A stretch of DNA of 64,000 nucleotides, taken from Candidatus Adlerbacteria bacterium. Its GTDB lineage: Bacteria; Patescibacteriota; Minisyncoccia; Phycocordibacterales; SBAW01. Made by a program: the position numbers and the translations under genes. This document shows, in pieces, positions 57,251-64,000 of this stretch. A model generated the notes under the pieces. The model ran no database searches, was not told where the DNA came from, and was given only the letters and a program-made list of their open reading frames with translations. Numbering within the stretch: position 1 is the first letter of the stretch; every line of letters begins with the position of its first letter. The stretch spans positions 13,621 to 77,620 of the forward strand of contig JARIGK010000004.1 of NCBI GenBank assembly GCA_029288895.1, written 5' to 3'.

Positions 57251-58087
57251 ATGACATCTGTCCCCGAAGAAATAAAAAAAGTGGTGGGGAACACAGAAGG
57301 GCCTGTCAGCATGATTTTGGCAGGCGTACACGGTGACGAATTGTGCGGCGTCTCTGCCCTGCAAGAGATTTTTAACTCTCTGGAGATAGAGCGGGGGACG
57401 GTGTTATATGGGTTTGGCAACCCCCGAGCCATTGCCACGGGGAAGCGCTTCGTCGAAAAAAATCTTAATAGGATGTTTAAACCCGATGCAGATCTAACTG
57501 ATGAAGAAAAACAAAGTTATGATTATGACCGTGCACAGTATCTAAAAAAATATTTCGATACAGCGGAGGCACTGCTCGATATTCATTCGAACCCCTGGCG
57601 CGAAGAGAAAACATTCGTCATATGTGAAAAGAATGGATTTGAACTAGCAGGATCTTTGCCGACAGACATTGTTGTATCGGGTTTTGATGCGGCGGAGCCG
57701 GGCGGCACTGACTACTATATGAATAGAGGGGGGAAGATTGGTATTTGTTTTGAAGCGGGCTATTTGGATGACGCGTTTTCGAGAGCCACAGCAAAAGTTG
57801 CAATAGAAAATTTTTTAGAAGCACGGGGGCATACCACACGCGCGATTTTGCCTCGTGCACAGAAAAAACTGAACGTATTTAAAAAAGGCCTCTCGCGCAG
57901 CGATGCGTTTGTTCTTACTCGACCATTTGCCAATTTTGAGGCGCTTAAAGAGGGGGAATTGATCGGAACTGATGGAGCTGAAGAAGTGCGAGCGCCGAGA
58001 GCGTGCCACATCCTATTTGCCCGCAATGGAAAGTTCAAAGGGGATGAAATTTTCCTCCTGTGCGATGAGACGAAGCCTGAGTGGTAG
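57251..58087 (+). CDS. succinylglutamate desuccinylase/aspartoacylase (AstE/AspA) family zinc deacylase
   Basis: ILAGVHGDE zinc-binding motif and overall AstE_AspA layout. Confidence 0.7.
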   Translation: MTSVPEEIKKVVGNTEGPVSMILAGVHGDELCGVSALQEIFNSLEIERGTVLYGFGNPRAIATGKRFVEKNLNRMFKPDADLTDEEKQSYDYDRAQYLKKYFDTAEALLDIHSNPWREEKTFVICEKNGFELAGSLPTDIVVSGFDAAEPGGTDYYMNRGGKIGICFEAGYLDDAFSRATAKVAIENFLEARGHTTRAILPRAQKKLNVFKKGLSRSDAFVLTRPFANFEALKEGELIGTDGAEEVRAPRACHILFARNGKFKGDEIFLLCDETKPEW

Positions 58088-58097
58088 TATTCCTAGT

Positions 58098-58865
58098 ATG
58101 GGGACCGAATCGAAATTTCTCACGAATCTAAAGAAGCTGGCGCTCTCTACCAAAGAGAGTATTGATTTAAGCGATTTTACTAACTATACAGAGAAAAATA
58201 TACATATAACAAAAGAACCGTTTCCTCATTTTATTGCAGAAAATTTCTTTAAACCGGAGATCTATGATGCCTTGTGTAAAGAATTTAATGCCGTTATGGA
58301 GCGCGGCTTATCCAATTCCAAAGGAGGAGATTTTAATAAATTCCACGCGTTTGATATTGACTATGATGGGTATCTCTATGTGCCTGCCCCGACGTTAGCG
58401 CGCGACAACCCGCTTCGGCTGTTTTACAGCCTCGAATGGAATATGTTTTTTTCAAAATTATTCCGACAATTTACATCGTTCGAGACATCGTTTGTGCTTC
58501 ACCATCACCCGCCAGGCGACAGAACGGGTTTTGTTCATCACGACTTTTCGGACAAACGATTCCACGAACGCTCGGTCCTTCTTAATGGAGTAATTGCGCC
58601 CGAAATAAAAACTGGCGCTGCAGCGCGCAGACGAGTAATTTCACTCCTTATATATATTAATAATCCTGTGTGGCAGGAAGGTGACGGAGGAGAGACGGCT
58701 ATCTATGCTGCAGATAAAACTATAGTGATAAAGAAAATACCTCCAATCAATAATACGCTGTTTGCGTTTCAGACATCGCCTGTATCTTTCCATGCCTTTC
58801 AGGCGAACAAAAAGGACCGCAACTGTCTTGTGCAATGGTTCCATATGCCGCCAGAATTACTCTAA
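58098..58865 (+). CDS. hypothetical protein, possibly 2OG-Fe(II) oxygenase/cupin-like
   Basis: VHHD (HxD) followed by a distal His. Weak assignment. Start at MGTESKF inside track ORF 57972..58865. Confidence 0.35.
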   Translation: MGTESKFLTNLKKLALSTKESIDLSDFTNYTEKNIHITKEPFPHFIAENFFKPEIYDALCKEFNAVMERGLSNSKGGDFNKFHAFDIDYDGYLYVPAPTLARDNPLRLFYSLEWNMFFSKLFRQFTSFETSFVLHHHPPGDRTGFVHHDFSDKRFHERSVLLNGVIAPEIKTGAAARRRVISLLIYINNPVWQEGDGGETAIYAADKTIVIKKIPPINNTLFAFQTSPVSFHAFQANKKDRNCLVQWFHMPPELL

Positions 58866-58869
58866 ACAT

Positions 58870-59466
58870 ATGCCGAAGAAAAAACTTTTATTTGTTGGAG
58901 CAGGCGGAGAGCTGGCATCAAAAGTTCTACCGCTATTGTCGAAGTCATATGACATCGTTGGTATTGCAGGTAGGCGGGATGATCTGCGCCCATATTGTGT
59001 TGAAATGTATAAAGGTAATTTACTTACCGGCTACCAACAGCTTTTTGAAACAGCATTTCGCGCACATCAATTCGATATAATTATTTGGAACCCTGTGCGT
59101 TATTTTTTTACTTCTTTGATGCAGAGTACGCGCGAAAGTTTACATACAGAATTTGATATTGCAGTTGCGCTCGCTGTCGAGTGTCTAAAAACAGCTCGCA
59201 AAGAGCAAAATTTTTCTGGCACATTTGTATTAGTTTCGAGCCTGTCCGCATTTGGGTACAGAAAAGATCTTGCCACGTATTCGATTGTAAAAAATGCTCA
59301 AGTTAGATTCGCCAAAGTGCTGGCCGAGGAATTGAAAGGTGCTGTAGTGGTAAAAATAGTTGCCCCTGGTTCTGTGCGGGCAATACCTACGGAAAGTCTG
59401 GGGAAAGCCTTTATTTCAAGCCTAGAAAATGAATATCCAGAGCGGGTCTTGTATACCGTTCAATAG
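58870..59466 (+). CDS. short-chain dehydrogenase/reductase (SDR)-like NAD(P)-binding protein
   Basis: Rossmann GAGGELASK near the N-terminus. Start inside track ORF 58762..59466. Confidence 0.55.
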   Translation: MPKKKLLFVGAGGELASKVLPLLSKSYDIVGIAGRRDDLRPYCVEMYKGNLLTGYQQLFETAFRAHQFDIIIWNPVRYFFTSLMQSTRESLHTEFDIAVALAVECLKTARKEQNFSGTFVLVSSLSAFGYRKDLATYSIVKNAQVRFAKVLAEELKGAVVVKIVAPGSVRAIPTESLGKAFISSLENEYPERVLYTVQ

Positions 59467-59557
59467 ACTTGCTTTTTCTTATAAAAATGTTATTATAAAT
59501 TACCCTAGAAATCTCTAGGATATCTCATCAACAGACAGAGAAGAGGGAGTTCTTTCC

Positions 59558-60016
59558 ATGCGTACCATTATTCTCGCTGGCTCCGCCGCCGTCGCGATGT
59601 CCCTGAGCGTATCCACCGCGTTTGCGGCAAGCCCCAACCAGGCGATCATCGACAAGAGCTGCTGGGGTTTTTACGATGCTGCGCTGGGTGGCAACGGAGT
59701 CAAGCTGGAACGGCCCGAAGCGGCGTTCAAGTTCTCGGTCAAGGCGGACGGCTCGTTCGTCTTCACTGCGAAGGCTGGTGCTGCCGCGCGCAAGAACTGG
59801 AATGGCGCCTCGGGCAACGACTACCTCACCCAGAAGGAGGCGCAGTACCAGCCGCTTCCTGACGGCGGCCTGCAATTTGCCAATCAGTCGGCGCATTCCT
59901 ACTACACGCTGACTCCTGCGGCTTCCCAGTCCGGCGACGCTCCTGGTTCGGTGCGTTTCTCGGTGCTGTACAAGCACAACCAGGGTACAGCCAACGGTGA
60001 AGCGTTCTGTAAGTAA
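59558..60016 (+). CDS. secreted hypothetical protein (152 aa), GC-rich relative to flanking DNA
   Basis: Signal peptide MRTIILAGSAAVAMSLSVSTAFAA. SD agaagaggga. Terminator hairpin gggcccg...cgggcc at about 60040-60075. Confidence 0.55.
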   Translation: MRTIILAGSAAVAMSLSVSTAFAASPNQAIIDKSCWGFYDAALGGNGVKLERPEAAFKFSVKADGSFVFTAKAGAAARKNWNGASGNDYLTQKEAQYQPLPDGGLQFANQSAHSYYTLTPAASQSGDAPGSVRFSVLYKHNQGTANGEAFCK

Positions 60017-60120
60017 CAGGTAGCGATGCCAGGGCGAGTGTTTGGGCCCGTATAGCGATATGCGGGCCTTTTCTTTTGGGAAAGCACTTTGTGCTTGTAT
60101 GATTACGGGGCTAACTTCAT

Positions 60121-61662
60121 ATGGAACCCGTTACACAATTTTCTCAAACTTTCAGAAAGGATAGATTTGGTTTTGAGAAAAATTACACTCTTTCTGAAGC
60201 TGTTGAGCTTTTCATAAAACCATGTGGTCGTTTTAAATCACCCCTCTCTTGGAAAGATAAGCTGGAAATATTCATAGCGAAATTCGTGAGCCGTTCGCGA
60301 ATTTTTAATACTATAGTGGCTCTCCCTGTGTACGATATTTCCCCTAACTGGCAAATACTTTTAAATTATCTCGCCAAAGAAGGTGTTATTGTAAGACCAA
60401 CATTCCATCCATTTTTGCAGCATAATGACTACCCTCCGTCCCATACGGTATATCTTGTGTCGCATCTTGATCAGAAGGTAACTGATGGGAAATTGGAGCG
60501 CGATCAAATCACTGCTTTTGGTAATGGCCCAAGATTTGAAGATGCGTATGGGAAAGCGGTTGGTGAAATGCTCGAGCGCTATACGCTCGCGCTCTTTCGA
60601 ATAAAAGATTTATTGTTTTGTTCGCGTGTGGAACTTGTACAAAAGGGGGAACTAGTCCTCGATATTAGTGCTAAGCCACAATTTCTGCCCTGGCAGAAAG
60701 AGCATTTTAAAGAGCTGGGCGCAACAGATCGCACGACGTTGTCGTGGGTTGAGGGCAGAGAACTTATTTCTAATAGGCGCGCCTACGTTCCGGCGCAGCT
60801 TATATTCTGGAGTCGAACTGTATTGGGTGCGAAGTCGGATATGGTTGTTCTGCAGCAACCTACAAGTAATGGGCAAGCAGGTGGGTTTACTTTCGAAGAG
60901 AGTGTTCTTTCAGCGATATATGAAAATGTGGAGAGAGACGCATTCCTCATATATTGGCTCAACACCCTTTCTCCGAAACGTATTGCGCTTGATAGTATTC
61001 AAAATCCCGATGTTGTTTCTGTAATTGCCTCGGCACAGCGGTATGGTCTGGATTTGTATTTTCTTGATACAACGAGTGATATCGAGATACCAGCTTGTAT
61101 ATGTGTTGTCATGGACAGGCGAGGCCCAGAACCACGGTTGGCGATGGGGGGCGGTGCCGGATTTGATATTCAAAAAAATCTCCTATCGAGCGCAAATGAA
61201 GCAATTAGCGTGGCGCAAAACAATTATGCGTTTGATGTGCCTAAGAACTACAAACCATTTTTAGATACAACAATTACAAAAAAAGAGCGTATGGGCTTAT
61301 GGCGCGGCTCTACAATGATTGAGCATTTTAATTTTTTCATTGGAGGGGAAGAGGTACCTCTTGAAGAAAGCCGTTTTGCAAACCTGGCGCGCACGTTTCC
61401 TTCAAAAAAAGAAGAATATTCATTTACACGTGAACTTTTTAAACACTTAGGAGAAGGGTACGAATTATATTGCTATCAAGCAAAACATGCAGTGCTTTCC
61501 AAATTGGGGTATGTGGTGACAAAAGTTGTCATACCTAAACTTGTACCTCTGTATTTGGCAGAGTATATGGCGACACTTGATGCGGAACGTTTGTATGAAG
61601 TCCCAAAAAAACTTGGGTTTGAAAACACCAAGCTCAATCCATGGCCCCATCCATTTCCATAG
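60121..61662 (+). CDS. YcaO-domain cyclodehydratase (TOMM/azoline-forming family)
   Basis: YcaO ATP-binding signatures: AVGEMLERY and PTSNGQAGGFTFEESVLSAIYENVERDAF (SNGxAxGxTxEEA...E..ERD). 513 aa with a roughly 140-aa N-terminal extension. Confidence 0.85.
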   Translation: MEPVTQFSQTFRKDRFGFEKNYTLSEAVELFIKPCGRFKSPLSWKDKLEIFIAKFVSRSRIFNTIVALPVYDISPNWQILLNYLAKEGVIVRPTFHPFLQHNDYPPSHTVYLVSHLDQKVTDGKLERDQITAFGNGPRFEDAYGKAVGEMLERYTLALFRIKDLLFCSRVELVQKGELVLDISAKPQFLPWQKEHFKELGATDRTTLSWVEGRELISNRRAYVPAQLIFWSRTVLGAKSDMVVLQQPTSNGQAGGFTFEESVLSAIYENVERDAFLIYWLNTLSPKRIALDSIQNPDVVSVIASAQRYGLDLYFLDTTSDIEIPACICVVMDRRGPEPRLAMGGGAGFDIQKNLLSSANEAISVAQNNYAFDVPKNYKPFLDTTITKKERMGLWRGSTMIEHFNFFIGGEEVPLEESRFANLARTFPSKKEEYSFTRELFKHLGEGYELYCYQAKHAVLSKLGYVVTKVVIPKLVPLYLAEYMATLDAERLYEVPKKLGFENTKLNPWPHPFP

Positions 61663-61665
61663 ACT

Positions 61666-62400
61666 ATGTACATAGATTTTTCAAAGCTCTTCCATAGAGC
61701 ATCAAAAGATAGCCGAGATGGTGGTAGGGTGCATATACCAAGAGATTCCGCCCAGTGGCCCGATGCCTGGAAGACAACTTTCTATAAAGCATATAAGTCG
61801 CTTCCATCTATTATTCTCTCTCATTCGGACTTGCGAGCAGATCTTTTCTCTACTATCGTTTCTCGAACCTCAAGGAGAGGGCCATACAGCGAGACGCTCT
61901 CCAAAGACGAGCTTGCAACAATCTTGCTTTATTCATGCGGAAAGAAAAAAAATAACGATGGAACGAATCGTGCGCAACCGTCAGGTGGAGGTCGATACCC
62001 AATAGAAGCGTATGTGTTGATGTTTCGTTCATTGCCAGACGTTCCTGCAGGCATCTATCACTACAATGTAGAGAATCATACACTTGAGCGTTTAGCAGCT
62101 AAAGAATTTACGAAAGAAGATATTGCAAGATTATTTTCATACGAGTGGATACAGGATAGTTCTGCGGCAATTGTTTTAACCTCTGCTTTTGAGCGCACAA
62201 AAATGAAATACGGCCAGCGCGGCTATCGGTATGCAATGCTTGAAGCGGGGCATATCGGCCAAAATATTTGCCTTATTTCTCAGGCTTTGAATGTTCAGTG
62301 TTGTCCAATGGGCGGAAGCTTTGATGAAGGGCTAGAAAACATACTTGGTATAGACGGCGAGGATGAAAGTCTCGTCTACACACTTGTTTTGGGGAAATAA
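61666..62400 (+). CDS. SagB-type FMN-dependent dehydrogenase (nitroreductase superfamily; azoline oxidase)
   Basis: PSGGGRYPIE (compare PSAGGLYP) and C-terminal EAGHIGQNICL...CCPMGGSFDE. ATG 3 nt after the YcaO stop. Confidence 0.8.
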   Translation: MYIDFSKLFHRASKDSRDGGRVHIPRDSAQWPDAWKTTFYKAYKSLPSIILSHSDLRADLFSTIVSRTSRRGPYSETLSKDELATILLYSCGKKKNNDGTNRAQPSGGGRYPIEAYVLMFRSLPDVPAGIYHYNVENHTLERLAAKEFTKEDIARLFSYEWIQDSSAAIVLTSAFERTKMKYGQRGYRYAMLEAGHIGQNICLISQALNVQCCPMGGSFDEGLENILGIDGEDESLVYTLVLGK

Positions 62401-62437
62401 TATAGCTCCAACATAAACTCCTGGTATACTTGGAGGT

Positions 62438-62779
62438 ATGAGGAAAGTCCTCCGAACTGTCATACGCACTGCGGCACTCATTGCGTTCGCAGTATTTGTA
62501 TTTTCTACAGGATTGGTAAATAAACTTGGGGGGTCAGCTGTAGAAAATCAAAAAAATAAACAAAAAGATCAGGATGATTTGCTCGCTTCCTTTACTGGTC
62601 CAGAGAAAGCATATGCGGATGCGCCCGCGGCTTGCAGTGGAAGTGATGCTTGTGGTGGGCAACCTCCGGATGCGTGCGGAGATGCCTGCGGCGCCGGCGC
62701 TTCGTCTTCCGGTGCGTCTGATGCTGGGGGCGGTCCTGGCCCAGGCCCCGACCCAGGCCCCGACCCAGGCCCTCATTGA
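62438..62779 (+). CDS. small ORF with Cys/Ser/Gly/Pro-rich C-terminus, candidate RiPP precursor (or secreted low-complexity protein)
   Basis: 113 aa with N-terminal hydrophobic segment and C-terminal AACSGSDACGGQPPDACGDACGAGASSSGASDAGGGPGPGPDPGPDPGPH (6 Cys, many Ser). Directly downstream of YcaO-SagB. Own terminator at 62812..62841. Confidence 0.4.
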   Translation: MRKVLRTVIRTAALIAFAVFVFSTGLVNKLGGSAVENQKNKQKDQDDLLASFTGPEKAYADAPAACSGSDACGGQPPDACGDACGAGASSSGASDAGGGPGPGPDPGPDPGPH

Positions 62780-62811
62780 GTAGAAAATAGTATAGAAAGA
62801 AAAACGCCCCG

Positions 62812-62841
62812 TTGTATTGACGGGGCGTTTCGCACTCGAAT
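62812..62841. terminator. bidirectional rho-independent terminator
   Basis: aaaacgccccgt-tgtattg-acggggcgttt. Confidence 0.6.
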
Positions 62842-62858: not shown

Positions 62859-63314
62859 TTAAACCCCGCCCGTGCAGATGAACGTGACAGCGACAGGTTC
62901 ATCGACGGTGTACTTGCCTCGCACCTCCCAGATTGGCTGGGGACGCGTGGCAGCCTTTAGATTGTAGCCGACGTTGTTCCACGACAGGATGTCGAAGTGG
63001 AACATGCCGTCCTTCTGCTGCTGCAGGGTAATGAAACCCCACTTCCTCGCCGTCGATTCGCCGTTCATCCGGCCCAGCACTTTGGCCGAATTGTCGGTGT
63101 CGAAGAGTAGCTTGAGCTGGATCTTTGGGAGCCAGCTGGCATATCCCTTAGGCTCACCGAGGCAAGTGCGCACCAAGCCTGTTTCCTTGCTGGGAAAGTC
63201 GGTGATGGCGGCGTTTGCTTGCAGCAACGACTTGCTTTGCCCAAACGCGGTCTGAGCGCCGAACGACAGTAGTGTGAGGGCCAAAAACGCCCCCAAGTTT
63301 GCGAAGAACTTCAT
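62859..63314 (-). CDS. secreted hypothetical protein (signal peptide), GC-rich
   Basis: MKFFANLGAFLALTLLSFGAQTAFGQ with SD aaggaggg. In frame within track ORF 62859..63374. Confidence 0.5.
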   Translation of the reverse strand: MKFFANLGAFLALTLLSFGAQTAFGQSKSLLQANAAITDFPSKETGLVRTCLGEPKGYASWLPKIQLKLLFDTDNSAKVLGRMNGESTARKWGFITLQQQKDGMFHFDILSWNNVGYNLKAATRPQPIWEVRGKYTVDEPVAVTFICTGGV

Positions 63315-63464: not shown

Positions 63465-64000
63465 TATGAAAATTCGTACTACACTCCTTTTTATTTGCGT
63501 ATTGTTGTTGTGTTGTGTGGCTGGCGCTGGCGGATATTATTACTTCAAAATATATCTGCCCGCGCGAGAACACACATTAGTTATGAATTCGATACAAGAA
63601 TCTCACCCCGCACGCAACGCGCTTTATGCCGGTGACAATGCCACCGCGATCAGCACTTTGCGCAGTTTAATTGCTAAAGCTCCTACAAAAGAGGAGCGGG
63701 CACGTCTTCAACATCTCTTAATTCTAGGTCTTTTCAATATAGACAACGAAGCAGACACTTCAGAAGCTGTTTCACTTTCATACACGCTTATAAACGACTA
63801 TTCAGTGCCTGCATGGATACGCGCATTGACTCTCAACCACCTCGCACTCTTTATGCATGGCGGCGGCGTAAATTTTTATAAGAAATATTTTACACAACCT
63901 CCACTTGATGCATTTATAAATACTTCCGGTAATGATTCGACAAGGGCGTGGACCGCATACTACAAAATCCTTGCACTTTCCGACGAGACGTACCCGACGT
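63465..64000 (+). CDS. membrane-anchored hypothetical protein (3'-truncated by window end)
   Basis: MKIRTTLLFICVLLLCCVAGAGGYYYF... with an N-terminal TM. Runs to the window edge. Confidence 0.4.

What the first reader, a model, noticed from the sequence alone, without database searches (positions are those of the whole stretch)
62438..62779. Candidate precursor peptide: small ORF with six-Cys, Ser/Gly/Pro-rich C-terminal core immediately after YcaO-SagB
The 113-aa product ends in AACSGSDACGGQPPDACGDACGAGASSSGASDAGGGPGPGPDPGPDPGPH. Cys/Ser-rich cores are the substrates of YcaO cyclodehydratases. It is bounded by its own strong terminator. Two atypical features keep this uncertain. First, there is an N-terminal hydrophobic segment (MRKVLRTVIRTAALIAFAVFVFSTGL) resembling a signal anchor rather than a classical leader. 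Second, the GGAGG sequence is only about 1 nt from the ATG, so the true start may differ. The (GPDP)n tail is also unusual.
Basis: inference. Interest (0 to 1): 0.6.

Follow-up and report, generated by a model that had tools for sequence, protein, structure and literature searches.

The report
Membrane-anchored azole-peptide precursor in Patescibacteria
The small gene after the YcaO and SagB enzymes is real, unannotated, and most likely their substrate peptide; it belongs to an undescribed family from ultra-small (CPR) bacteria whose "leader" looks like a membrane-export signal rather than a classical leader.

Summary
The ORF at 62438-62779 exists as described, with two corrections. It has four Cys, not six. 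The hairpin after it has its T-run on the opposite strand.

The ORF is a real gene that the source annotation missed. Relatives lie beside YcaO/SagB in 21 of 25 Patescibacteria loci, in several gene arrangements. The four exceptions all have contigs that end next to the enzymes.

About 43 family members share one architecture:
- a basic N-terminus followed by a transmembrane helix;
- a 10-30 aa linker;
- a near-invariant junction motif, P-x-[A/V]-[H/Y]-A-D-[A/V]-P;
- a hypervariable acidic Gly/Ser/Cys/Pro tail with almost no Lys/Arg.

No Pfam or NCBIfam model matches it. A membrane-anchored TPR protein of about 370 aa follows it almost everywhere.

The YcaO keeps the PxPxP C-terminus and the SagB keeps the Lys-Tyr motif. 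No E1-like/ThiF partner and no recognisable RRE was found.

Best reading (0.68): a linear azole-peptide (TOMM/LAP) precursor whose leader doubles as a Sec-type export signal.

Three caveats:
- 11 of 43 cores lack Cys.
- The TPR partner is linked more tightly than YcaO.
- One 10.5-kb contig carries the pair without YcaO/SagB.

YcaO-nitroreductase clusters in CPR were already reported in 2020, so this is a new variant of a known kind.

The parts
60121..61662 (+). YcaO cyclodehydratase, 513 aa. It has a family-specific N-terminal domain of about 135 aa, and its C-terminus ends ...NPWPHPFP (PxPxP).
   Evidence: Pfam PF02624, E 1.2e-44. TIGR03604 SagD family scores 191.5 bits, below the cut-off of 219. 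P509 and H510 are invariant in 28 homologues. The closest solved chains are MusD, TruD and LynD, matching the YcaO domain only. The N-terminal domain model (pLDDT 76.5) has no PDB fold match.
61666..62400 (+). SagB-type FMN dehydrogenase (azoline to azole), 244 aa.
   Evidence: TIGR03605 scores 127.9 bits, above the cut-off of 78.4. PF00881. The Lys-Tyr motif (K181-Y182, KYGQRGYRY) is invariant in 13 of 13 family SagBs.
62422..62430 (+). Extended -10 promoter-like box, TGgTATACT, ending 7 nt before the ATG. This would give a leaderless or near-leaderless transcript for the precursor gene.
   Evidence: The same box (TGnTATACT or TGnTACAAT, 6-8 nt before the ATG) is conserved in L001, L005 and L014, although the rest of the spacer differs. 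Across the whole family it is not significantly enriched over control genes (8/20 vs 30/142, p=0.09). This part is inference.
62438..62779 (+). Precursor-like gene, 113 aa, not called in the source annotation.
   Evidence: The exact sequence is absent from the 15-billion-protein collection, although YcaO, SagB and the 151-aa neighbour from the same contig are present.
62438..62518 (+). Basic N-terminus (MRKVLRTVIR) plus hydrophobic helix (residues about 11-27): a signal-anchor or signal-peptide-like segment, predicted N-in/C-out.
   Evidence: Kyte-Doolittle maximum is 2.0 for this ORF. All 41 family members have a 17-residue Kyte-Doolittle hydropathy maximum of at least 1.6, with N-flank charge +4.1 against C-flank +0.6. 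Conserved N-terminal pattern: hydrophobic-K-K-hydrophobic-hydrophobic-K/R-hydrophobic-x-x-Y.
62600..62626 (+). Junction motif, residues 55-63: P-E-K-A-Y-A-D-A-P. Family consensus is P-x-[A/V]-[H/Y]-A-D-[A/V]-P. It marks the leader/core boundary and is a candidate cleavage site (A60|D61).
   Evidence: A(-1) in 40/40, D/E(+1) in 40/40, A/V(-3) in 40/40, H/Y(-2) in 36/40, P(+3) in 28/40 (alignment).
62618..62776 (+). Core: 53 aa, acidic, Gly/Pro/Ser/Cys-rich, no Lys or Arg. Contains four Cys (three in D-A-C context) and six Ser (no Thr).
   Evidence: Pooled family core composition: G 31%, S+T 23.5%, D+E 17.6%, C 4.9%, K+R 0.4%.
62669..62691 (+). 12-nt tandem repeat, 1.9 copies (GATGCCTGCGGA = D-A-C-G), inside the core.
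62740..62772 (+). Perfect 12-nt tandem repeat, 2.8 copies (CCCAGGCCCCGA = P-G-P-D). This is the origin of the (GPDP)n tail.
62801..62831 (.). 12-bp GC-rich hairpin between convergent genes. The T-run is on the minus strand.
62862..63314 (-). 151-aa secreted protein of unknown function. It is a lineage-specific insertion that splits the precursor from its usual partner gene.
   Evidence: No Pfam or NCBIfam hit. No homologue in the related loci. In relatives the partner follows the precursor within 6-33 nt. The gene is called in the collection.
63466..64000 (+). Start of the membrane-anchored TPR partner gene, which runs off the window.
   Evidence: Homologous to L001:10602-11720. The family profile matches consensus TPR chains at positions 49-117. 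It follows the small ORF in nearly every locus.

Best explanation
ORF 62438-62779 encodes the precursor (substrate) peptide of a Patescibacteria-specific linear azol(in)e-peptide (TOMM/LAP-type) system.

Proposed pathway:
1. The gene is transcribed from its own extended -10 promoter directly after sagB (inferred).
2. The product has a basic N-terminus and one hydrophobic helix that act as a Sec/YidC-type export signal or membrane anchor. Then come a linker and a conserved P-x-A-[H/Y]-A-D-[A/V]-P junction, followed by a hypervariable acidic Gly/Ser/Cys/Pro core that diversifies by short tandem duplications. The architecture is shown; the export function is inferred.
3. In the cytoplasm, before the tail is translocated, the YcaO uses ATP to cyclodehydrate core Cys (and probably Ser) to azolines. 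The SagB flavoprotein then oxidises them to azoles. This is inferred from the enzyme families, conserved motifs and gene linkage.
4. Leader recognition is not through a classical E1-like/ThiF/RRE partner. It presumably uses the YcaO's own family-specific N-terminal domain, together with the conserved N-terminal or junction motif of the peptide (inferred; this is the weakest step).
5. The modified acidic tail is exported. It either stays tethered or is released by cleavage at the A-x-A|D junction. It works together with the co-encoded membrane-anchored TPR protein, which binds or presents it (inferred). The biological role outside the cell is not known; host interaction, antagonism or metal binding are possibilities.
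For: Enzymes:
- YcaO hits PF02624 at 1e-44, with a PxPxP C-terminus that is invariant in 28 homologues.
- SagB scores above the TIGR03605 cut-off, and its Lys-Tyr motif is present in 13 of 13 family SagBs.

Linkage:
- A family member is present in 21 of 25 YcaO-anchored loci from Adlerbacteria, Kaiserbacteria, Liptonbacteria, Sungiibacteriota and Paceibacterota.
- It lies within 100 nt of YcaO or SagB in 16 loci, in at least three arrangements: after SagB, after YcaO, and divergent from YcaO.
- In the reverse direction, 4 of 5 informative contigs found through the peptide alone carry YcaO and/or SagB within 3.5 kb.
- No other conserved small ORF exists in these loci.

Precursor-like anatomy:
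- The leader is conserved and under purifying selection (synonymous 18-27 vs nonsynonymous 4-11 codon differences).
- The junction motif is near-invariant and the cores are hypervariable.
- Some cores look like textbook TOMM substrates: L017 ...CGGCGGGCASGGGSGGSGC, L024 ...CTSCTSCSSCS..., L015 CCPC..GCDCC.
- L001 and L012 each have two precursor-partner cassettes per enzyme pair.
- In L001 the two copies are 100% identical in DNA from -85 (including a remnant of the sagB 3' end) to codon 61 at the junction. Beyond that, the cores and partner genes are only 65-80% identical.

Export:
- 41 of 41 members have a hydrophobic helix, and 40 of 41 have a more positive N flank.
- Cores contain 0.4% K+R.
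- No dedicated ABC transporter or leader protease is conserved nearby.
- Precedent: bufferins are RiPPs with Sec signal peptides that are modified in the cytoplasm and then exported (PMC11626156).
- YcaO-nitroreductase LAP clusters were already noted in 93 CPR genomes (PMC7298704).
Against: - No chemical evidence was available.
- 11 of 43 family cores have no Cys, so Ser/Thr would have to be the substrates there.
- The TPR partner is linked more tightly to the small ORF than YcaO/SagB are.
- One 10.5-kb contig (L047) has the small ORF (Cys-free core) plus partner but no YcaO or SagB within 2.4 kb upstream and 7.9 kb downstream.
- The predicted topology puts the tail outside the cell, whereas YcaO and SagB need cytoplasmic ATP and FMN. 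Modification must therefore precede translocation.
- No E1-like, Ocin-ThiF or recognisable RRE domain was found. The N-terminal YcaO domain has no Pfam match and no PDB fold match.
- The YcaO scores below the TIGR03604 trusted cut-off.
- The A-x-A junction lies 10-31 residues from the helix, farther than a normal signal-peptidase I site.
Confidence: 0.68

Rival explanations
1. The small protein is an unmodified, exported or membrane-tethered acidic low-complexity protein. It functions only with its TPR partner as a cell-envelope module. YcaO and SagB are frequent neighbours but act on something else, or the linkage reflects shared regulation or location rather than an enzyme-substrate relation.
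For: - The partner follows the small ORF in essentially every locus with downstream sequence, a tighter link than with YcaO.
- L047 has the pair without YcaO or SagB in 10.5 kb.
- 26% of cores lack Cys.
- The predicted N-in/C-out topology and the K/R-free tail fit an exported disordered segment.
- No RRE or E1-like recognition module was found.
Against: - 21 of 25 YcaO loci carry the ORF, often within 100 nt of the enzymes, and the link survives rearrangements across about 30-55% YcaO identity.
- No alternative conserved small ORF is available as a substrate.
- Many cores are Cys/Ser/Gly strings typical of azole-peptide substrates.
- The L001 gene-conversion tract starts inside the sagB 3' end and stops exactly at the leader/core junction.
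- A YcaO-SagB pair has no known role other than peptide azole formation (established knowledge of the family).
Confidence: 0.22
2. The peptide is modified by YcaO and SagB, but it is not exported. The hydrophobic N-terminus is simply a hydrophobic or amphipathic leader that the enzymes recognise in the cytoplasm or at the inner membrane face. The A-H-A-D motif is then a site for a dedicated, unidentified leader protease, as in classical TOMMs.
For: - The N-terminal pattern (hydrophobic-K-K-hydrophobic-hydrophobic-K/R-hydrophobic-x-x-Y) and H/Y at -2, D at +1 and P at +3 of the junction are more conserved than a generic signal peptide or signal-peptidase I site requires.
- The junction is 10-31 residues from the helix, which is atypical for signal peptidase I.
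Against: - The hydrophobic stretch has transmembrane-grade hydropathy in 41 of 41 members and follows the positive-inside charge asymmetry.
- The tails are almost free of K and R.
- No transporter or protease is conserved in the neighbourhood.
- The partner is itself membrane-anchored, with a predicted external TPR domain.
Confidence: 0.08
3. The ORF is a chance open frame and not a gene.
For: - It is not called in the source annotation.
- It has a low-complexity, repeat-rich 3' half.
- It lacks a properly spaced Shine-Dalgarno sequence.
Against: - Homologues with the same architecture occur across the phylum.
- Synonymous codon differences exceed nonsynonymous ones in this frame.
- Its position next to the same genes is conserved.
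Confidence: 0.01

Closest known systems
LAP (YcaO + nitroreductase) clusters reported in CPR genomes (Sharrar et al. 2020, mBio, PMC7298704)
   Same: Same phylum-level group and the same enzyme pair. That paper reports 110 clusters in 93 CPR genomes (51 of them Parcubacteria), 89 with a nitroreductase next to YcaO, and one putative 84-aa precursor next to a YcaO.
   Different: That report is an antiSMASH-level census. It shows one Microgenomates precursor in a cluster that also has a peptidase. The passages I read (a term search, not the whole paper) do not mention the signal-anchor leader, the A-H-A-D junction motif, the TPR partner, or the absence of an E1-like partner. The ORF in this window is not annotated at all.
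Microcin B17 (McbA with McbBCD) and streptolysin S-type TOMMs (SagA with SagBCD)
   Same: A YcaO cyclodehydratase plus a SagB/McbC-type FMN dehydrogenase acting on a Gly/Ser/Cys-rich core downstream of a leader. The PxPxP and Lys-Tyr motifs are present.
   Different: No E1-like McbB/SagC partner. The leader is a transmembrane-grade hydrophobic segment. The core is strongly acidic and free of K and R. No ABC exporter or immunity gene is present. McbD is only a weak match (E 6.6e-6). No precursor family model matches.
Bufferins (MNIO-modified RiPPs with Sec signal peptides; PMC11626156)
   Same: The logic is the same: a RiPP precursor whose N-terminus is a general-secretion signal, which is modified on Cys to a five-membered heterocycle in the cytoplasm and then exported without a dedicated transporter.
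   Different: The enzymes are entirely different: MNIO/DUF692 plus DUF2063 making 5-thiooxazoles, against YcaO plus SagB here. Bufferin cores fold into small proteins, whereas these tails are low-complexity. Here the junction is far from the hydrophobic helix.
Cyanobactin heterocyclases MusD, TruD and LynD
   Same: These are the closest solved YcaO domains (E 1.8e-30 to 7e-26).
   Different: They are enzymes of about 780 aa with a fused E1-like/RRE N-terminal half. Here the N-terminal 135 aa is unrelated and has no PDB fold match.

Membership tests
TOMM/LAP (linear azol(in)e-containing peptide) biosynthetic system | YcaO-domain ATP-dependent cyclodehydratase | tested here: met
   PF02624 at E 1.2e-44. 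Invariant Glu and Arg residues across 28 homologues. However, TIGR03604 (SagD family) scores 191.5 bits, below its cut-off of 219.25.
TOMM/LAP (linear azol(in)e-containing peptide) biosynthetic system | Pro-rich C-terminal PxPxP motif of azoline-forming YcaOs | tested here: met
   The protein ends ...NPWPHPFP. P509 and H510 are invariant, and P511 is at least 90% conserved, in 28 homologues. That this motif marks azoline-forming YcaOs is from my own knowledge of the family.
TOMM/LAP (linear azol(in)e-containing peptide) biosynthetic system | E1-like (C protein) or Ocin-ThiF-like (F protein) partner or fusion carrying the leader-binding RRE | tested here: not met
   No ThiF/E1 domain in the YcaO or in any conserved neighbour. 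The PDB profile match covers only the YcaO domain. The 135-aa N-terminal domain has no Pfam hit, and its model (pLDDT 76.5) has no Foldseek PDB match. Whether that domain binds the leader is untested.
TOMM/LAP (linear azol(in)e-containing peptide) biosynthetic system | SagB-type FMN dehydrogenase with the Lys-Tyr motif | tested here: met
   TIGR03605 scores 127.9 bits against a cut-off of 78.4. K-Y is invariant in 13 of 13.
TOMM/LAP (linear azol(in)e-containing peptide) biosynthetic system | Adjacent small precursor gene with a conserved leader and a variable Cys/Ser/Thr-rich core | tested here: met
   The window ORF has 4 Cys and 6 Ser in a 53-aa core. The family shows a conserved leader and junction with hypervariable cores. 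Caveat: 11 of 43 cores have no Cys.
TOMM/LAP (linear azol(in)e-containing peptide) biosynthetic system | Azoline or azole heterocycles actually installed on the core (-18 / -20 Da per ring) | not testable with these tools
   This needs expression and mass spectrometry.
Sec-signal-bearing RiPP precursors (bufferin-like logic) | N-terminal signal-peptide-like n-region and h-region | tested here: met
   The 17-residue Kyte-Doolittle hydropathy maximum is at least 1.6 in 41 of 41 members. N-flank charge is +4.1 against +0.6 for the C flank.
Sec-signal-bearing RiPP precursors (bufferin-like logic) | Signal-peptidase I type A-x-A cleavage site just after the h-region | tested here: inconclusive
   The [A/V]-x-A|D pattern is present in 40 of 40, but it lies 10-31 residues beyond the helix. 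Cleavage was not tested.
Sec-signal-bearing RiPP precursors (bufferin-like logic) | MNIO (DUF692) modifying enzyme | tested here: not met
   No such gene in the window cluster or in the conserved neighbours. This is not a bufferin.
Known TOMM precursor families (heterocycloanthracin/sonorensin, NHLP, Nif11, SLS-like and others in NCBIfam/Pfam) | Match to a curated precursor model | tested here: not met
   None of 18 family members matches any NCBIfam or Pfam model at E<=0.1, apart from scattered single chance hits.
Bacterial lipoprotein | Lipobox with an invariant Cys at the end of the signal peptide | tested here: not met
   There is no Cys in residues 1-65. The first Cys is C66, downstream of the junction.

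The most novel reading that the evidence does not exclude
These are the first YcaO/azole-type RiPPs that use a general-secretion signal anchor as their leader. The peptide is heterocyclised in the cytoplasm by a YcaO that lacks any classical RRE or E1-like partner. It is then threaded across the membrane and displayed, or released at the A-H-A|D junction, on the surface of an ultra-small episymbiotic bacterium, in complex with a dedicated membrane-anchored TPR receptor. That would make it a surface-displayed, azole-stiffened acidic peptide module used for host contact or metal capture, rather than a conventional secreted antibiotic.
Probability: 0.3. Interest if true: 0.78.

Novelty: new variant of a known kind. 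Interest (0 to 1): 0.6.

Why it matters
Patescibacteria (CPR) have tiny genomes and almost no secondary metabolism. Even so, this YcaO-SagB-peptide-TPR module is retained across several candidate phyla of the group, sometimes with two peptide cassettes per enzyme pair. That suggests it matters for their biology.

Defining the substrate family turns anonymous 'LAP clusters' into something testable. The family has a clear architecture, a sharp junction motif and a partner protein. Short genes could be synthesised and co-expressed with the two enzymes.

If the leader really is an export signal, and the YcaO recognises its substrate without an RRE or E1-like partner, two consequences follow. The bufferin-type 'modify, then Sec-export' logic would extend to the YcaO world. 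And there would be a new mode of substrate recognition for azoline-forming YcaOs.

There is also a practical point. The gene is missed by annotation in its own genome, and the family has no Pfam or NCBIfam model, so precursor-finding tools would currently overlook it.

Tried and rejected
1. Direct homologue search with the 113-aa protein found nothing. The tool needs shared 5-mers and the family is too divergent.
2. A first genome scan with the single YcaO protein found nothing. The alignment-based scan worked.
3. The third homologous-protein search, with 17 leaders, returned only seeds or their near relatives.
It returned a single locus, and that locus was from the same organism as L001.
5. 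P0001 could not be located by the look-up of encoding contigs, so the source record and organism name remain unknown. By YcaO similarity it is a relative of Candidatus Adlerbacteria.
6. Leaderless-promoter hypothesis for the whole family: a -10 box 5-9 nt before the ATG occurs in 8 of 20 precursors against 30 of 142 control genes (p=0.09). I keep it only as an inference for the window's own clade.
8. Search for an E1-like, protease or transporter gene among conserved neighbours: none found. The neighbours were a PRTase-PQQ beta-propeller fusion, a TM-TPR protein, an AMMECR1-domain protein and proteins with no Pfam match.
9. Search for a rival conserved small ORF: none found.
10. Lipoprotein reading rejected, because there is no lipobox.
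11. The partner's fold could not be predicted. Only its first 178 aa lie in the window, and sequences from outside the window were not eligible for structure prediction.
Full report
**What is in the window.**
- It begins 37 nt after the stop of a 244-aa SagB-type dehydrogenase (61666-62400). SagB scores 127.9 bits on TIGR03605, above the cut-off of 78.4.
- SagB in turn follows a 513-aa YcaO (60121-61662; PF02624 at E 1.2e-44; TIGR03604 at 191.5 bits, below its cut-off).
- A terminator-like hairpin at 60044-60069 and a promoter-like site at 60076-60103 precede the YcaO. YcaO, SagB and the ORF therefore look like a unit separate from the upstream genes: an AstE/AspA-like hydrolase, a 2OG-Fe(II) oxygenase, an SDR-like protein and a 152-aa secreted protein.

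Two details of the observation are wrong.
- The protein has four Cys (C66, C72, C80, C84), not six.
- The strong hairpin at 62801-62831 (dG -22.5, z -3.2) has its T-run on the minus strand. It lies just downstream of a convergent gene at 62862-63314, so it is a shared terminator at best.

The (GPDP)n tail is a perfect 12-nt tandem repeat (2.8 copies) at 62740-62772. A second 12-nt repeat at 62669-62691 encodes D-A-C-G.

**Is it a gene?** ORF length alone is not evidence here. The exact protein is also absent from a 15-billion-protein collection that does hold the YcaO, the SagB and the 151-aa neighbour from the same 298-kb contig, so the source annotation did not call it. Comparative data settle the question.
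- The YcaO's relatives are all Patescibacteria; the best non-self hit is 55% identical, from Candidatus Adlerbacteria.
- In that syntenic contig, an 89-aa ORF sits 29 nt after SagB. It has the same N-terminus, the same '...DDLFASFT..PSAYADTP' segment, and a different Cys/Gly/Asp/Pro tail.
- Between three close relatives, codons that differ only synonymously outnumber those that change the amino acid in the leader (18-27 vs 4-11 over 62 codons).
- No in-frame start exists upstream of the ATG, because there is a TAA at 62414-62416. All relatives start at the equivalent Met.

**The family.** An alignment-based scan of one genome per species returned 24 YcaO loci, all Patescibacteria. HMM and pattern scans of their ORFs found a related small ORF in 21 of 25 loci (24 scan loci minus L004, plus L001 and the window).
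- The four without one (L011, L013, L020, L021) all have a contig end within about 700 nt of YcaO or SagB.
- Two of the 21 (L015, L027) are divergent variants, and one (L026) is a fusion.

A profile built from eight leaders, run against 1.84 billion representative proteins, gave 29 hits at whole-library E<=1e-3. All are 66-138 aa with the same layout.

Across 43 members the architecture is as follows.
- A basic N-terminus with the pattern hydrophobic-K-K-hydrophobic-hydrophobic-K/R-hydrophobic-x-x-Y.
- A hydrophobic helix: the 17-residue Kyte-Doolittle hydropathy maximum is at least 1.6 in 41 of 41, and the N flank averages +4.1 against +0.6 for the C flank.
- A 10-31 residue linker.
- A junction motif of P, x, A/V (40/40), H/Y (36/40), A (40/40), D/E (40/40), A/V/T/I, P (28/40).
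- A tail of about 39 aa with G 31%, S+T 23.5%, D+E 17.6%, C 4.9% and K+R 0.4%.

No Pfam or NCBIfam model matches any of the 18 members tested.

**Linkage to the enzymes.** The small ORF lies within 100 nt of YcaO or SagB in 16 loci, in three arrangements:
- after SagB (window, L001, L005, L006, L007, L012, L014, L015);
- after YcaO (L017, L018, L019, L026);
- divergent from YcaO (L010, L016, L024, L045).

For the reverse test I looked up contigs of family members found through the peptide profile alone.

| Member | Result |
|---|---|
| P0070 | SagB fragment 1.8 kb upstream |
| P0073 | SagB and YcaO 3.5 kb away |
| P0090 | YcaO 16 nt away, divergent |
| P0077 | YcaO 1.1 kb away |
| P0082 | no YcaO or SagB in a 10.5-kb contig (L047) |
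| P0087, P0079, P0069, P0091 | contigs too short to say |

Clustering all intergenic small ORFs from the loci found no other conserved small ORF.

**Leader behaviour.** L001 and L012 each carry two peptide cassettes per enzyme pair. In L001 the two cassettes are 100% identical in DNA from -85 to +181. The tract starts in a duplicated remnant of the sagB 3' end. It includes the promoter-like box and the whole leader, and it stops at codon 61 in the A-Y-A-D-T junction. Beyond it, the cores and the downstream partner genes are only 65-80% identical. A conversion tract that homogenises the leader and stops at the junction is what one expects if both peptides must be read by one enzyme set.

**The start-site puzzle.** The GGAGG sequence 1 nt before the ATG is probably not a Shine-Dalgarno site. 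In the window and its three closest relatives, an extended -10 box (TGnTATACT or TGnTACAAT) ends 6-8 nt before the ATG, in otherwise diverged spacers. That suggests a dedicated promoter and a leaderless or near-leaderless mRNA. Across the whole family this is not distinguishable from background (8/20 vs 30/142 control genes, p=0.09), so I keep it as an inference for this clade only.

**The partner.** In almost every locus a 360-410 aa protein follows the small ORF within 6-33 nt. It has an N-terminal membrane helix. Two TPR repeats follow at profile positions 49-117, which match consensus TPR chains at E down to 3e-27. The rest is helical and uncharacterised. In the window its gene starts at 63466 and runs off the end. 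It is separated from the ORF by a lineage-specific insertion: the 151-aa secreted-protein gene on the opposite strand, plus the hairpin. The partner is linked to the small ORF more tightly than YcaO is.

**The enzymes.**
- The YcaO ends in NPWPHPFP. P509 and H510 are invariant in 28 homologues.
- The SagB Lys-Tyr motif is present in 13 of 13.
- The nearest solved YcaOs are the cyanobactin heterocyclases MusD, TruD and LynD, but only the YcaO domain matches.
- The conserved 135-aa N-terminal domain has no Pfam hit. A fairly confident model (pLDDT 76.5) has no Foldseek match in the PDB.
- No E1-like or ThiF gene, protease or ABC transporter is conserved in the neighbourhood. The conserved neighbours are a PRTase-PQQ-propeller fusion, a TM-TPR protein and a few unknowns.

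The 'atypical' N-terminus is the defining trait of the family. Several features fit a peptide that is heterocyclised in the cytoplasm and then exported by the general machinery:
- the positive-inside charge asymmetry;
- the tail's near-total lack of K and R;
- the A-x-A-type junction;
- the absence of a dedicated exporter.

Bufferins establish this logic for a different enzyme class (PMC11626156).

The main rival is that the peptide and the TPR partner form an envelope module that does not need YcaO. Three results keep it alive: the tighter partner linkage, the 26% of Cys-free cores, and contig L047. I give it about 0.2.

**Novelty.** YcaO-nitroreductase 'LAP' clusters in CPR genomes were reported in 2020: 110 clusters in 93 genomes, 51 of them Parcubacteria, with one 84-aa putative precursor (PMC7298704). 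The system type is therefore known. Other CPR surveys mention YcaO clusters only in passing. I found no description of the following in the searchable literature or in the family libraries:
- the precursor family itself;
- its signal-anchor leader and junction motif;
- the TPR partner;
- the lack of a classical leader-binding partner.

I classify this as a new variant of a known kind.

Noticed in passing
L001:10240-10506 and L001:13908-14174: Two precursor cassettes share a 267-nt tract of 100% DNA identity. The tract begins in a duplicated remnant of the sagB 3' end and stops at the leader/core junction. The flanking cores and partner genes are only 65-80% identical. This looks like gene conversion that homogenises the promoter and leader.
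   Followed up: yes
L026:5484-6293: One family member is a 269-aa fusion. The usual helix, V-R-A-D-I-P junction and Gly/Ser/Glu/Cys tail ending in ...SSSCC are followed directly by a domain of about 170 aa that begins CFRGRTLV and contains ...THPF. This resembles a Hint/intein autoprocessing domain (Pfam Intein_splicing only E 0.033). It could define the C-terminus of the core by self-cleavage.
   Followed up: partly
L027:3581-5248: A 555-aa protein has a membrane helix, an L-C-A-D-A motif, and about 80 aa of Cys/Ser/Gly repeats (CSCSSGSSCSSCGSGSSCG...), then a large unknown C-terminal domain. It lies upstream of a divergent YcaO-SagB pair and may be a protein-sized relative of the precursor.
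   Followed up: no
window 62862-63314 (-) with promoter-like site 63394-63365: A 151-aa secreted protein gene has a near-consensus promoter (TTGACA-18-TACAAT with TG) and a well-spaced AAGGAGG. It is inserted between the precursor and its usual partner gene. It has no family match and no homologue in the related loci.
   Followed up: partly
window 57251-60016 (+): Upstream block: AstE/AspA-like hydrolase, 2OG-Fe(II) oxygenase (weak similarity to the cyclophane-peptide oxygenase YhhC, E 9e-8, below cut-off), SDR-like protein and a 152-aa secreted protein. The block is syntenic only in the closest relatives (L001, L005). L001 has a second 2OG oxygenase. These may be clade-specific tailoring enzymes.
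   Followed up: partly
L012:8522-9757; also L021, L022:8348-9619, L023:7538-8830: A membrane-anchored protein of about 410-430 aa with repeated Cys/His motifs (C-H-x-I-G-H-I...) and no Pfam match sits next to YcaO in four loci.
   Followed up: no
L022:6656-8305 and 10 other loci: A phosphoribosyltransferase domain fused to a PQQ-like beta-propeller (about 550-580 aa) is conserved next to the YcaO/peptide module in 11 loci. A 273-aa TM-TPR protein is also conserved in 11 loci.
   Followed up: partly
P0062, P0069, P0071, P0072, P0088 (family members): A subgroup of Cys-free cores consists of (D-S-G)/(D-S-A) repeats and always ends in a single Met (...DTTM, ...GDGDM, ...DSTM, ...SASDM). This conserved C-terminal residue is unexplained.
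   Followed up: no
L047:1697-1942 and L048:1244-1576: The one contig with the peptide and partner but no YcaO or SagB has a degraded partner-like fragment upstream. In a second contig carrying the same peptide (L048), an open frame upstream of it looks to me like a transposase remnant (by eye; not searched against any family library), which hints at rearrangement or loss of the enzyme genes.
   Followed up: partly
window 57972-58087: The longest-ORF start of the 2OG oxygenase overlaps the AstE-like gene by 116 nt. The L001 orthologue is 256 aa against 297 aa here, so the true start is probably further downstream.
   Followed up: no
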